A stretch of DNA of 11,287 nucleotides, taken from UHGV virus genome UHGV-0262291; one strand, 5' to 3'. Both the position numbers and the translations under genes were made by a program. Of the stretch, positions 6,940 to 8,010 are shown in pieces. This DNA is from a virus. How positions within the stretch are numbered: position 1 is the stretch's first letter; each line of letters opens with the position of its first letter. Below the pieces are notes generated by a model. The model searched no databases. It was given only the letters and a program-made list of their open reading frames with translations, and was not told where the DNA came from.

Positions 6940-8010
6940 TTACCCCCTGAAGCCCGGCGGAATTTCGTTATCCGGTTCAGTAATATGATTCACACAACGC
7001 TGGTTGTTCGTGCCGCTTACCGGGAGAAACCAGGGGTTCTCAAAATTCCGGTCCGGTCCAAAAAACGTCGTCGCTCGCTGAACAAATTCCGTTCCCGCTT
7101 TCCCGGTAGCCGCCAGGTATCTTGCGTAACGCCTCACGCCATCCAGCATGGCCTCTGGTGGCACCCCCTCGCGTAATCTGGCCTTCCAGGCACTGAAAGC
7201 GGATTTCTTCGGGTTTGCTCCGGCACGCAACGGGTACTCCCGCCAGACCTGTTCGAACACATCCGGATAATCCACTCGTCCCACAGACTGACCGGTGTTT
7301 TCCGGGACTACCCGATCGGCTTCCCGCTGAATGGCGGAATCGGCTTCAGGCTGCTGAAGTTGGTGTGATTGCTCCTGCCTTGCGGTCATCACCTGCTGCA
7401 CAGCGCCCGAATCGGCTTTCAGCGCATACGCTGAATCGGCTTCCGGTGTCGTGCCTGCTGGCTGACCGAGATTGACGGTCTGAACATCCCCTGCCTGGTT
7501 CGTGGCGTTTTTTACGCCATGGACCATAGTGTTTTGATCTTCTTGATCTATATCTTTATCTGTATCTTTATCTGTCGTGACTCGTCGTGACATGTGCGTG
7601 ACATTTCGTGACTCGCCGTGACAATCGCCATTTTGTTCCCGCTTTCTTTCCCTCTCTCGCTGCGCCCTCTTGCGCTCTGCCGGAGATTTTGCGGTTTGCG
7701 AAATATTGCCGTTGTCCTCTTTCAGCACCTGGCGTTTTTCCCATCCAGTGATTAAATCACCATCAAGTACCCGCCCCTGCATCGTCTGCAAAATTGAATC
7801 AATTACCTCTTCTGTCACGTCGAGCGCACTTGCCAAATCTTCTGTCGTGACATCAATGTGACCTCGCGTGACATTTCGTGACGCGCTCACCAGGAGGTGG
7901 ATATATACTGCCATCACTGTTGCAATTGGCTGCCCTGACACCCTGGCAATTGTTCGCCACTTAGGGTCATTTGGCATGTCATGCCATAATCTGAGCCAGG
8001 CGTTAGCCAT
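6940..8010 (-). CDS. Replication initiation protein with DnaT-like (primosomal protein I) C-terminal domain; contains the candidate origin
   Basis: The C-terminus ...VNHITEPDNEIPPGFRG closely matches the E. coli DnaT C-terminus as recalled (...VNTVSEPDSQIPPGFRG). Two CGTGAC iteron clusters lie inside the gene, as ori-lambda lies inside O. The ATG at 8010 has GAGG 5 nt upstream; the ORF track starts at a GTG at 8016. Confidence 0.65.
   Translation of the reverse strand: MANAWLRLWHDMPNDPKWRTIARVSGQPIATVMAVYIHLLVSASRNVTRGHIDVTTEDLASALDVTEEVIDSILQTMQGRVLDGDLITGWEKRQVLKEDNGNISQTAKSPAERKRAQRERERKREQNGDCHGESRNVTHMSRRVTTDKDTDKDIDQEDQNTMVHGVKNATNQAGDVQTVNLGQPAGTTPEADSAYALKADSGAVQQVMTARQEQSHQLQQPEADSAIQREADRVVPENTGQSVGRVDYPDVFEQVWREYPLRAGANPKKSAFSAWKARLREGVPPEAMLDGVRRYARYLAATGKAGTEFVQRATTFFGPDRNFENPWFLPVSGTNNQRCVNHITEPDNEIPPGFRG
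7551..7623. repeat. Iteron cluster 1: two tandem 12-bp AT-rich repeats followed by five CGTGAC direct repeats at 10-11 bp spacing (candidate origin)
   Basis: TATCTTTATCTG at 7551..7562 and 7563..7574; CGTGAC at 7576, 7586, 7597, 7607 and 7617. Confidence 0.6.
7814..7882. repeat. Iteron cluster 2: four (C/T)GTGAC repeats at 9-11 bp spacing plus one inverted copy
   Basis: CGTGAC at 7846, 7866 and 7876; TGTGAC at 7857; inverted GTCACG at 7814..7819. The 15-mer GTGACATTTCGTGAC occurs in both clusters (7598..7612 and 7868..7882). Confidence 0.55.

What the first reader, a model, noticed from the sequence alone, without database searches (positions are those of the whole stretch)
7551..7882. Two arrays of CGTGAC iterons at helical-turn spacing inside the replication initiator gene
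There are five CGTGAC repeats at 10-11 bp spacing (7576..7622), preceded by two tandem AT-rich 12-mers, and a second set of four about 270 bp away (7846..7881) with one inverted copy. A 15-mer is shared between the two clusters. In-phase direct repeats inside an initiator gene are the signature of a lambdoid origin, but two separated clusters is not the classic single ori-lambda layout. They encode repeated SR(R/N)VT peptide units in the linker of the protein.
Basis: seen in the sequence. Interest (0 to 1): 0.5.

Follow-up and report, generated by a model that had tools for sequence, protein, structure and literature searches.

The report
Two-part iteron origin inside initiator gene
The replication-initiator gene of this E. 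coli lambda-like prophage carries two conserved arrays of the 6-base word GTCACG, one per DNA helical turn, the second next to an AT-rich stretch. This is very probably the phage's replication origin, an unstudied two-part version of the lambda design that recurs in prophages of many Proteobacteria.

Summary
CGTGAC occurs five times at 7576-7622 (spacing 10/11/10/10). A second array at 7846-7882 has three exact copies and one copy with one mismatch. There is an inverted copy at 7814-7819, an AT-rich 6/12-bp-periodic tract at 7530-7575, and a shared 17-mer (not 15-mer).

Both arrays lie in a 356-aa phage initiator gene (6940-8010, minus strand). They are DNA-level elements: the hexamer is read in all three frames, and synonymous sites under array A are frozen in 20 diverged relatives (p=2e-6).

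Of 49 related genes from gamma-, beta- and alpha-proteobacteria that were long enough to test, 38 carry the same hexamer at least twice in both arrays. The word changes by lineage (GTCACG, GTAACG, CGAACG) and always changes in both arrays together. Array B is almost always followed by an AGATAA-type tract that is read in three different frames.

Array B plus the tract sits where ori-lambda lies in gene O and SPP1 oriL lies in gene 38. Array A, inside the DNA-binding domain's coding sequence, is the extra feature. An unrelated N-domain fused to the same C-domain also has two arrays of its own repeat.

Origin function is inferred, not demonstrated. I found no literature on it. I rate it a new variant of a known kind.

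The parts
6940..8010 (-). Replication initiator gene: 356 aa, ATG at 8010, stop included. N-terminal DNA-binding domain, basic helix, disordered linker, C-terminal domain.
   Evidence: ORF list and translation. phrog_3729 'replication initiation protein', E=6e-255. No Pfam family. Present at 80% coverage or more in 1647 of 5426 complete E. coli genomes. AF2 domain map.
7846..7882 (-). Array A: four units of GTCACG on the coding strand (7882-7877, 7872-7867, degenerate GTCACA 7862-7857, 7851-7846), spacing 10/10/11. Codons 43-55 (ASRNVTRGHIDVT), at the end of helix 3 plus the loop before the helix-turn-helix.
   Evidence: Synonymous sites frozen in 20 diverged loci: V47 GTC 20/20, T48 ACG 20/20, G50 GGT 20/20, H51 CAC 19/19, V54 GTC 20/20, T55 ACG 19/20. 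Same gene position in 38 of 49 relatives. pLDDT dip and loop in the AF2 model. Insertions of extra units here in relatives.
7814..7819 (+). Single inverted copy of the hexamer (GTCACG on the + strand, CGTGAC on the coding strand), at codons D64-V65-T66.
   Evidence: V65 is GTG in 17 of 17 diverged loci, while other conserved valines use 4 codons. By my count from the printed sequences it is absent in about 4-5 GTCACG-type loci and in the CGAACG-type loci I examined, so it is conserved but not universal.
7576..7622 (-). Array B: five exact GTCACG units (coding-strand starts at 7622, 7612, 7602, 7591, 7581), spacing 10/10/11/10. Codons 130-145, at the start of the disordered linker just after the basic helix.
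   Evidence: The hexamer is read in three frames (CHG / SR / VT). 2-6 units of the lineage's own hexamer sit at the same place in relatives. Over all loci the spacing is 10 bp (94 cases) or 11 bp (29 cases).
7530..7575 (-). AT-rich, purine-rich (on the coding strand) tract directly after array B: ACAGATAAAGATACAGATAAAGATATAGATCAAGAAGATCAAAAC. Candidate DNA-unwinding element. Contains GATC at 7536-7539 and 7545-7548.
   Evidence: 73% A+T against 46% for the gene. Across 37 loci the mean is 66% against 45%, with 70% purine on the coding strand. The AGATA(A/C) motif follows array B in most loci and is read in all three frames (30/7/4 loci), so it is conserved as DNA. The E. coli mosaic junction falls here, at window 7536-7552.
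7496..7526 (.). Imperfect 13-bp inverted repeat with a 5-nt loop, just past the AT-rich tract. A possible accessory origin element.
   Evidence: single-strand DNA fold -8.7 kcal/mol, z=-2.6. The same element follows the tract in L060. Only a subset of distant loci have a palindrome here: C4+...G4+ in 7 of 41. Weak evidence.
7729..8010 (-). Coding sequence of the N-terminal domain (residues 1-94): helices 2-14, 16-25, 29-45, 56-63, 67-77 and a beta-hairpin at 78-88. A winged-helix-like fold and the presumed iteron reader.
   Evidence: AF2 block pLDDT of 78-91 over residues 11-90, apart from a dip to 66 at residues 41-50. Foldseek hits are all winged-helix transcription factors but weak, E>=0.4. 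The domain is conserved in 51 loci.
7633..7683 (-). Basic helix (residues 110-126, AERKRAQRERERKREQN) immediately upstream of array B. It holds residue Q117, one of the few positions that discriminate between iteron types.
   Evidence: helix 110-126. (Q117 in 22 of 22 GTCACG-type loci, W/Y/F in 10 of 10 CGAACG-type loci).
6943..7275 (-). C-terminal domain (residues 246-331) plus tail. The last 17 aa, VNHITEPDNEIPPGFRG, copy the C-terminus of E. coli DnaT (INSVSEPDNHIPPGFRG). Presumed host-primosome or helicase-loader recruitment module.
   Evidence: PDB 6aep, E=7e-4. The module is exchangeable: relatives carry other C-domains (PF17948 DnaT and others) with other partner genes.

Best explanation
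The two GTCACG arrays and the adjoining AGATAA-type tract form the phage's replication origin, embedded in the gene of the protein that fires it.

Proposed steps:
1. After induction, transcription from the early rightward promoter makes the initiator.
2. Its N-terminal winged-helix-like domain, possibly helped by the basic helix, binds each 10-11-bp unit. With one unit per helical turn, the bound proteins line up on one face of the DNA.
3. Occupied array B (five units) sits directly against the AT-rich, strand-asymmetric tract at 7530-7575, which melts.
4. Array A (four units, about 260 bp upstream, plus an inverted copy) is an auxiliary site. It either joins the same nucleoprotein complex by looping or wrapping the roughly 220-bp spacer, or it titrates and autoregulates the initiator.
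5. The exchangeable C-terminal domain, which here ends in a copy of the DnaT C-terminal tail, brings in the host helicase-loading machinery. This phage encodes no helicase or loader of its own.

Shown here: the anatomy; DNA-level selection on both arrays and on the tract; co-variation of the two arrays; their uniqueness in a complete phage genome; and the equivalence of their position with ori-lambda and oriL.

Inferred: binding by the N-domain, unwinding, looping, and the host-factor route.
For: - Gene identity and context: phrog_3729 initiator, in the order cI | cro, cII-like, initiator, Ren-like ... Q.
- The hexamer is enriched and phased. Over all relatives the spacing is 10 bp in 94 cases and 11 bp in 29.
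- DNA-level selection on array A: three reading frames and codon entropy of 0.15 in array A against 0.82 outside, p=2e-6.
- DNA-level selection on the tract: the AGATAA motif is read in three frames.
- 38 of 49 relatives from gamma-, beta- and alpha-proteobacteria have the same hexamer at least twice in both arrays, against a codon-shuffle null maximum of 1-3.
- Three iteron types (GTCACG, GTAACG, CGAACG) switch in both arrays together.
- The arrays are intact in isolated phages: Tritos, Aeromonas pAEv1818 and Pseudomonas phi1.
- In the complete Tritos genome these are the only GTCAC runs at 10/11-bp spacing.
- Array B plus the tract lies at gene nt 389-480. The ori-lambda iterons lie at nt 349-433 of O, followed by an A-rich tract. 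The SPP1 oriL repeats lie at about nt 355-410 of gene 38, followed by an AT-rich tract (PMC5737612, PMC7466680).
- Distant members that lack array A still keep array B plus the tract (L037, L049, L029, L031, L040), so B is the core.
- The N-domain and both arrays travel together while C-domains and partner genes are swapped.
- An unrelated N-domain on the same C-domain has its own two arrays.
Against: - There is no experiment: no binding, unwinding or replication assay for any member of this family was found.
- The N-domain has no significant match to lambda O, SPP1 G38P or any Pfam family. The fold assignment rests on a 12-sequence AF2 model and weak Foldseek hits.
- The arrays sit physically inside or next to the N-domain coding sequence, so their co-inheritance with it does not by itself prove that it is the binder.
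- By my hand comparison of the array start positions listed, the distance between the arrays varies (about 250-350 bp) and is not locked to helical phase. This argues against a rigid looped geometry.
- Some distant N-domain relatives show no arrays at all (L043, L044, L053), or show different repeats (L041, L051).
Confidence: 0.72

Rival explanations
1. The arrays are initiator-binding sites, but their main job is control rather than initiation. They might act as an autorepression roadblock inside the transcribed gene, or titrate and 'handcuff' the initiator as the P1 incA or R6K auxiliary iterons do. The true unwinding site would lie elsewhere.
For: Array A and the inverted copy lie 129-197 nt into the gene, far from the AT tract, and are under strong DNA-level constraint. 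Two separated arrays are typical of plasmid control systems (own knowledge: P1 incC/incA, R6K, pSC101 inverted repeats). Array A is dispensable in some lineages.
Against: Array B abuts a conserved AT-rich tract, exactly as in ori-lambda and oriL. No other iteron cluster exists in a complete phage genome that could serve as the real origin. This rival is compatible with the best explanation for array A only.
Confidence: 0.12
2. The hexamers are sites for some other protein, either a host factor or another phage protein such as the CII-like or Ren-like neighbour, and not for the initiator itself.
For: No binding data exist. The canonical helix-turn-helix helices and wing show no residue that discriminates GTCACG-type from CGAACG-type proteins.
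Against: The same hexamer is used in hosts as different as E. coli, Pseudomonas, Bordetella, Aquitalea and Aeromonas. Closely related hosts (Serratia, Pantoea, Enterobacter) carry different types. Flanking genes and C-domains vary while the link between N-domain and arrays persists. The hexamer is not enriched elsewhere in the phage genome: 16 copies against about 22.6 expected for the whole genome.
Confidence: 0.06
3. The repeats are a by-product of slippage or recombination in a low-complexity, module-junction region. They would be tolerated peptide repeats or recombination hot spots with no sequence-specific function.
For: Unit number varies between relatives in both arrays. The E. coli mosaic junction lies in the adjoining tract. 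The linker holds other repeats: EADSA / GAATCGGCTT three times.
Against: The hexamer is read in three frames, so it is not a peptide repeat. Array A lies in a folded domain, with synonymous sites invariant across classes of Proteobacteria. The hexamer is retained in an otherwise unalignable linker over the same distances. Both arrays switch type in a coordinated way.
Confidence: 0.04

Closest known systems
ori-lambda inside gene O of phage lambda and Stx phages (O-some)
   Same: The origin lies inside the initiator gene, in the part that codes for the link between the DNA-binding N-domain and the partner-binding C-domain. Iterons are followed directly by an AT-rich, strand-asymmetric tract, then an inverted repeat (the lambda palindrome is from my own memory). 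The gene sits after cro and cII in the early rightward operon. Iteron number varies between relatives: 4 in lambda, 6 in Stx phages (PMC7466680).
   Different: Lambda has one cluster only, with half-sites at nt 350-417 of O. Its iterons are about 19-bp inverted repeats bound by O dimers, not a 6-bp core in 10-11-bp direct units. The protein here shows no detectable homology to O: no PF04492 hit and hhalign probability 0.1%. There is no P gene.
SPP1 oriL inside gene 38 (G38P 'replisome organizer')
   Same: Short direct repeats (AB boxes) at one-turn spacing at about nt 355-410 of the initiator gene, followed by an AT-rich unwinding element (PMC5737612, PMC6316719). G38P also binds a second, separate set of repeats (oriR). 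NCBI names the window's protein 'phage replisome organizer'.
   Different: The SPP1 second site is about 13 kb away in an intergenic region, not 260 bp upstream inside the same gene. No second cluster was seen in gene 38. There is no detectable sequence relation (no PF09681 hit). SPP1 encodes its own loader and helicase.
Iteron plasmids with two iteron sets (P1 incC/incA, R6K, pSC101). Own knowledge, not tested here.
   Same: Direct repeats are bound by a plasmid-encoded initiator. A second array, or inverted copies, serves in control, looping or handcuffing.
   Different: In those plasmids the arrays flank the rep gene and do not lie within its reading frame. Their units are about 19-22 bp. 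The Rep proteins belong to the RepA/pi winged-helix family, for which there is no evidence here.
Single-gene replication modules of lambdoid phages (phage LLS and 34 of 314 Enterobacteriales lambdoid phages; PMC12315714)
   Same: The replication module has only an origin-binding protein gene and no helicase or loader. That paper states such modules are experimentally unstudied and their replication is not understood.
   Different: Those phages are described as having a lambda O homologue. The window's initiator belongs to another family and ends in a DnaT-like tail.

Membership tests
Iteron-type phage origin embedded in the initiator gene (ori-lambda / SPP1 oriL architecture) | Three or more direct repeats at about one helical turn, inside the initiator's reading frame | tested here: met
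   Five units at 10/11 bp (array B) and four units (array A). Conserved in relatives.
Iteron-type phage origin embedded in the initiator gene (ori-lambda / SPP1 oriL architecture) | AT-rich unwinding tract directly adjacent to the iterons | tested here: met
   7530-7575 is 73% A+T. The tract is conserved at DNA level in three reading frames.
Iteron-type phage origin embedded in the initiator gene (ori-lambda / SPP1 oriL architecture) | A single cluster located in the inter-domain (linker) coding region | tested here: not met
   Array B fits (codons 130-145, start of the disordered linker). A second array lies at codons 43-55, inside the folded N-domain.
Iteron-type phage origin embedded in the initiator gene (ori-lambda / SPP1 oriL architecture) | The cognate initiator binds the repeats, and the fragment replicates when the initiator is supplied | not testable with these tools
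   No experimental data were found for any family member.
Lambda O protein family (Pfam PF04492, Phage_rep_O) | Sequence membership of the N-terminal DNA-binding domain | tested here: not met
   No Pfam hit for the window protein or for 23 diverse relatives. hhalign of the N-domain profile against lambda O gives probability 0.1%.
Lambda O protein family (Pfam PF04492, Phage_rep_O) | About 19-bp inverted-repeat iterons bound by dimers | tested here: not met
   The units are direct repeats with a 6-bp core and a 10-11-bp period.
SPP1 G38P-type replisome organizer (Pfam PF09681, Phage_rep_org_N) | Sequence membership of the N-terminal domain | tested here: inconclusive
   No PF09681 hit. hhalign against G38P gives probability 0.1%. 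There are weak PHROG matches to 'replisome organizer' families phrog_4880 (E=1.8e-6) and phrog_5968 (E=5e-5) over residues 4-168. The fold is winged-helix-like only by weak Foldseek hits.
DnaT (primosomal protein I) | Homology over the DnaT ssDNA-binding C-terminal domain (PF17948 / NF002770) | tested here: not met
   Only the last 17-25 residues match (NF002770 scores 17.9 bits against a cutoff of 201; 6aep E=7e-4). PF17948 is absent from this protein but present in the C-domains of some relatives.
Iteron plasmid replicons with control arrays (P1, R6K) | A second iteron array that controls copy number by handcuffing or looping | not testable with these tools
   A second array exists. Its role is unknown.

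The most novel reading that the evidence does not exclude
The two-part layout may be a general design rule for a large, unstudied class of prophage initiators. At least two N-domain families with no detectable sequence relation show it.

In the window's family the layout may also be self-referential. The protein loop encoded by array A (residues 45-55) is forced to change whenever the iteron changes. Together with an 8-residue indel (101-108) and residue 117 in the basic helix, it holds the only positions that discriminate GTCACG-type from CGAACG-type proteins, while the canonical recognition helix and wing hold none.

If that loop takes part in reading the iteron, then binding site and reader would be written in the same nucleotides. 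Origin specificity could then switch in one step, and incompatibility types would be created together. The DnaT-tail mimic would then explain how a one-gene replication module taps the host restart primosome.
Probability: 0.15. Interest if true: 0.8.

Novelty: new variant of a known kind. Interest (0 to 1): 0.55.

Why it matters
This initiator gene is present in about 30% of complete E. coli genomes (1647 of 5426) and in prophages of many other Proteobacteria, yet its origin has never been described.

The comparative data give a ready-made map: the core array, an auxiliary array, the unwinding tract and three natural specificity types. That map can guide work on how one-gene lambdoid replication modules start replication, which a 2025 paper explicitly calls not understood (PMC12315714).

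It also bears on prophage induction and copy number (including relatives in O157 strains), on incompatibility between co-resident prophages, and on annotation. Codon-level conservation inside this gene reflects a DNA element and not protein constraint.

Tried and rejected
- Pfam and NCBIfam on the protein gave no family for the N-domain.
- Profile comparison of the N-domain with lambda O, SPP1 G38P and the O157 L060 N-domain found no relation. The single-sequence targets limit sensitivity.
- Foldseek against the PDB gave only weak winged-helix hits, E>=0.4. The AF2 model came from 12 sequences; mean pLDDT is 59 because of the disordered linker.
- Eight literature searches (iterons with replisome organizer, GTCACG with iteron, the Eru types of Stx phages, lambdoid origins, SPP1 oriL, DnaT, phage D3) found nothing on this family's origin.
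- DnaA box: the TATATCCAC stretch at gene nt ~105 varies at codon level among relatives. Rejected by inspection.
- Strict helical phasing between the arrays: by my hand comparison of the array start positions listed, start-to-start distances are about 250-350 bp and do not cluster modulo 10.5. Not supported.
- A universal hairpin after the AT tract: significant in only a few loci. A C4+...G4+ palindrome occurs in 7 of 41. Kept only as a side note.
- A third iteron cluster elsewhere (an analogue of SPP1 oriR): none in the 46-kb Tritos genome or in the window.
- RNA explanation: Rfam finds only sok at 3932-4107. The two arrays are direct repeats, not inverted, so they cannot pair with each other.
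- The one promoter-like site on the + strand inside array B (7598-7625, 9 of 12 matches) is no more than shuffles give.
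Full report

Yes. Exact CGTGAC on the + strand starts at 7576, 7586, 7597, 7607 and 7617, with spacing 10/11/10/10. I call this array B. It also starts at 7846, 7867 and 7877, and a one-mismatch copy (TGTGAC) at 7857 completes a 10/11-bp register. I call this array A. An inverted copy lies at 7814-7819.

The window holds 13 exact copies against 4.5 expected, and none of 200 dinucleotide-preserving shuffles reaches 13. Nine of the 13 lie within 307 bp.

Tandem Repeats Finder reports the 10-bp array at 7574-7623. 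It also reports an AT-rich 12-mer (about 2.9 copies, also a 6-bp period) at 7541-7575.

The word shared by the two arrays is a 17-mer, GCGTGACATTTCGTGAC, at 7596-7612 and 7866-7882. An 11-mer, TCTGTCGTGAC, is shared as well.

**2. What gene is this, and where?**

The arrays lie in a minus-strand ORF (6940-8010, 356 aa). It matches PHROG 3729 'replication initiation protein' end to end (E=6e-255). It matches no Pfam family.

The gene order is that of a lambdoid early region:
- cI-like repressor (8712-9485, + strand)
- cro-like gene
- CII-like gene
- the initiator
- a Ren-like gene, then several unknowns
- YdfU/HNH, RusA, Q

The same gene is 100% identical in E. coli DLI.5a. It is found at 80% coverage or more in 1647 of 5426 complete E. 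coli genomes. It also occurs in sequenced phages such as Tritos and Evi.

No helicase or helicase-loader gene is present in the window or in the complete Tritos genome. This is therefore a one-gene replication module.

**3. DNA element or peptide repeat?**

It is a DNA element, for two reasons.

First, the units are 10-11 bp apart, so the hexamer is read in all three frames: tGT CAC Ggc gives CHG, gag TCA CGa gives SR, and GTC ACG gives VT.

Second, I compared 20 non-redundant, diverged relatives that keep the peptide ASRNVTRGHxDVT.
- Codon choice under array A is frozen: V47 GTC 20/20, T48 ACG 20/20, G50 GGT 20/20, H51 CAC 19/19, V54 GTC 20/20, T55 ACG 19/20.
- Conserved residues elsewhere in the domain use nearly all their synonymous codons.
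- Normalised codon entropy is 0.15 inside the array against 0.82 outside (Mann-Whitney p=2e-6).
- V65, which overlaps the inverted copy, is GTG in 17 of 17.

**4. Comparative evidence**

A scan of one genome per bacterial species returned 51 loci encoding the N-terminal domain, from gamma-, beta- and alpha-proteobacteria.

*Both arrays are conserved.* In 38 of the 49 genes long enough to test, one hexamer occurs at least twice at gene nt ~129-165 and at least twice at nt ~380-450. Codon-shuffled controls give 1-3.

*The word differs by lineage and changes in both arrays together*:
- GTCACG in 25 loci
- GTAACG in L023, L025, L035 and L039
- CGAACG/GAACGC in ten loci

*Spacing is one helical turn.* It is 10 bp (94 cases) or 11 bp (29 cases) for GTCAC, and 10 bp (29 cases) for GAACG.

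*Array B is followed by a conserved tract.* In nearly every locus an AGATAAAGATAAAGA, AGATACAGATAC or AGATAAGAGAAGA tract follows it directly.
- The tract averages 66% A+T against 45% for the genes, with 70% purine on the coding strand.
- It is read as DKDKD or TDTD in 30 loci, as QIREE in 7 and as RLDKR in 4. It is therefore conserved as DNA.

*Array B is the core.* Some distant members keep array B and the tract but lack array A (L037, L049, L029, L031, L040). A few show no arrays at all (L043, L044, L053) or show other repeats (L041, L051).

*Isolated phages have the same layout.* Aeromonas phage pAEv1818 and Pseudomonas phage phi1 have both arrays and the tract.

*No third cluster.* In the complete 46-kb Tritos genome the two arrays are the only runs of GTCAC at 10/11-bp spacing. 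The hexamer is not enriched elsewhere: 16 copies against about 22.6 expected for the whole genome.

**5. Where the arrays fall in the protein**

I built an AlphaFold model from a 12-sequence alignment. It is confident over the folded N- and C-terminal domains (10-residue block pLDDT mostly 75-93) but not in the linker. It gives these elements:
- an N-domain (residues 1-94) with helices 2-14, 16-25, 29-45, 56-63 and 67-77, and a beta-hairpin at 78-88
- a basic helix at 110-126
- a disordered stretch at 127-245
- a C-domain at 246-331

Foldseek hits to the N-domain are all winged-helix transcription factors, but they are weak (E>=0.4).

Array A (codons 43-55) is the end of helix 3 plus the loop before the helix-turn-helix. 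This loop accepts insertions of extra units in relatives. Array B (codons 130-145) opens the disordered linker, and the AT tract covers codons 146-160.

**6. Modularity**

In E. coli, matches cover either window 6942-7535 (the C-half) or 7553-8016 (the N-half with both arrays). The junction lies in the AT tract.
- L061 joins the window-type N-domain, both arrays and the tract to a PF17948 DnaT-type C-domain, followed by a 'replication protein P' gene.
- Other relatives are followed by a DnaC-like loader or by a large gene annotated 'replication protein P'.
- L060, from an O157:H7 strain, joins the window-type C-half to an N-domain with no detectable relation to the window's. That gene carries its own two arrays. 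AAGGGGCTT occurs three times at 11-bp spacing at nt ~172-205 and again at nt 441-472. The second array is followed by a purine-rich (GAACAG)n tract and the same inverted repeat.

The two-part layout therefore recurs with a different protein and iteron pair.

**7. Most likely mechanism**

The initiator's N-domain binds each unit, one per helical turn and so on one face of the DNA. Occupied array B loads stress onto the adjoining AT-rich tract at 7530-7575, which opens. The C-domain then recruits the helicase-loading machinery.

In this phage that machinery must come from the host. The last 17 residues, VNHITEPDNEIPPGFRG, nearly copy the C-terminus of E. coli DnaT, INSVSEPDNHIPPGFRG (E=7e-4). 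This suggests the host restart primosome or DnaB-DnaC as the route.

Array A and the inverted copy are auxiliary. They may cooperate with array B by looping or wrapping, or they may give autoregulation or titration.

Shown here: the anatomy, selection on the DNA, co-variation of the arrays, uniqueness in a phage genome, and the match in position to known origins. Inferred: who binds, the melting, the looping and the host route.

By my hand comparison of the array start positions listed, the spacing between the arrays (about 250-350 bp) is not phase-locked. A rigid loop geometry is therefore not supported.

**8. Rivals**

- *Control sites only, with the origin elsewhere.* This is contradicted for array B by the tract and by the absence of any other cluster. 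It remains open for array A.
- *Sites for another protein.* This is unlikely, because the same word is used in very different hosts and different words in related hosts, while the neighbouring genes vary.
- *Slippage or recombination by-product, or a peptide repeat.* This is contradicted.

**9. Comparison with known systems**

Array B plus the tract lies at nt 389-480 of the gene.
- The ori-lambda iterons lie at nt 349-433 of O, followed by an A-rich tract, and form a single cluster (PMC7466680).
- The SPP1 oriL repeats lie at about nt 355-410 of gene 38, followed by an AT-rich unwinding element (PMC5737612, PMC6316719).

So the core works like ori-lambda and oriL. It is not a member of either protein family: there is no PF04492 or PF09681 hit, and hhalign probability is 0.1% against both. 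Only weak PHROG links to 'replisome organizer' families exist.

The units are direct repeats with a 6-bp core, not 19-bp palindromes. The second array inside the DNA-binding domain's coding sequence has no counterpart in lambda or in SPP1 gene 38. The SPP1 second site, oriR, is intergenic and about 13 kb away (PMC6316719).

Plasmid systems with two iteron sets (P1, R6K, pSC101) are functional analogies that I recall from memory; I did not test them.

**10. Novelty**

Eight literature searches found no description of these iterons. The Eru papers on non-lambda replication modules of Stx phages do not mention iterons. Only 24 of 50,697 phage records carry the N-domain, and none is an experimentally studied replication model.

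A 2025 paper states that single-gene replication modules occur in 34 of 314 Enterobacteriales lambdoid phages, are experimentally unstudied, and that their replication 'is not yet understood' (PMC12315714).

I rate this a new variant of a known kind: an iteron origin inside the initiator gene, but bipartite, in an undescribed and widespread family.

**11. An intriguing detail**

I compared 22 GTCACG-type with 10 CGAACG-type N-domains. The only fully discriminating positions in residues 5-131 are:
- loop residues 45-48, 51 and 55, all encoded by array A
- an 8-residue indel at 101-108
- Q117 against W/Y/F in the basic helix

The helix-turn-helix helices and the wing have no discriminating position.

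The loop differences are forced by the DNA change, so this does not prove that the loop reads the iteron. It does leave the loop, the indel and the basic helix as the candidate specificity determinants. Shared ancestry also confounds the comparison.

Noticed in passing
window 6943-6993 (-), last 17 codons of the initiator: The C-terminal tail VNHITEPDNEIPPGFRG is almost identical to the C-terminus of E. coli primosomal protein DnaT, INSVSEPDNHIPPGFRG (PDB 6aep, E=7e-4). The rest of the C-domain is not DnaT-like. This may be mimicry of a host restart-primosome contact.
   Followed up: partly
window 1-11287; complete phage Tritos (L054): The replication module has a single gene. No P, DnaC or DnaB homologue is present in the window or anywhere in the 46-kb Tritos genome. 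Relatives with other C-domains are followed by DnaC-like or P-like genes (L058, L059, L060, L061). PMC12315714 says such one-gene modules are not understood.
   Followed up: partly
L060:1199-2290 (-), E. coli O157:H7 strain 7636: This gene has the same C-terminal half as the window gene (91.6% DNA identity) but an N-domain with no detectable relation to it. It carries its own two arrays: AAGGGGCTT three times at 11-bp spacing at gene nt ~172-205 and again at nt 441-472. These are followed by a (GAACAG)n tract and the same inverted repeat. The next gene is DnaC-like (PF01695).
   Followed up: partly
window 7496-7526: An imperfect 13-bp inverted repeat with a 5-nt loop lies just beyond the AT-rich tract (single-strand DNA fold z=-2.6). 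It recalls the palindrome to the right of ori-lambda (from memory). In 7 of 41 distant loci a C4+...G4+ palindrome sits at the equivalent place.
   Followed up: partly
window 7337-7346, 7409-7418, 7433-7442: GAATCGGCTT occurs three times at spacings that are multiples of 3 (72 and 24 bp). It encodes the (E)ADSA peptide repeats of the disordered linker. This is a true peptide-level repeat, unlike the hexamer arrays. E. coli length variants (324-374 aa) differ by insertions or deletions here.
   Followed up: no
window 7536-7539 and 7545-7548: Two GATC (Dam) sites lie inside the AT-rich tract, and GATCTATATCTTT on the + strand resembles the oriC 13-mer consensus (from memory). I did not check whether this is conserved.
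   Followed up: no
protein P0020 (302 aa; alignment A1): An E. coli variant of the initiator lacks the segment from the middle of array B through the AT tract up to the EADSA repeats. This may be an origin-deleted, defective prophage copy. It is seen on 4 contigs, including one of about 5.1 Mb (chromosome-sized).
   Followed up: no
window 3932-4107 (-): A sok antitoxin RNA (Rfam RF01794, 121.7 bits) marks a hok/sok-type toxin-antitoxin locus between the replication and Q regions. This matches the HokD and 'host killer' annotations in related phages.
   Followed up: no
residues 45-55, 101-108 and 117 of the initiator (window 7846-7878, 7687-7710, 7660-7662): These are the only positions that fully discriminate 22 GTCACG-type from 10 CGAACG-type N-domains. 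The helix-turn-helix helices and the wing have none. R49-G50 in the middle of the array-A-encoded loop is nearly invariant in all types, because the spacer CGNGG is kept.
   Followed up: partly
L041 and L051 (Serratia and Pantoea loci): In these distant relatives the N-domain is followed by an inserted domain, and ACTACGTAGTA-type repeats replace the hexamer arrays. In L051 the protein is also longer and the DTDTD tract lies further downstream. This is a different origin layout on the same N-domain.
   Followed up: no
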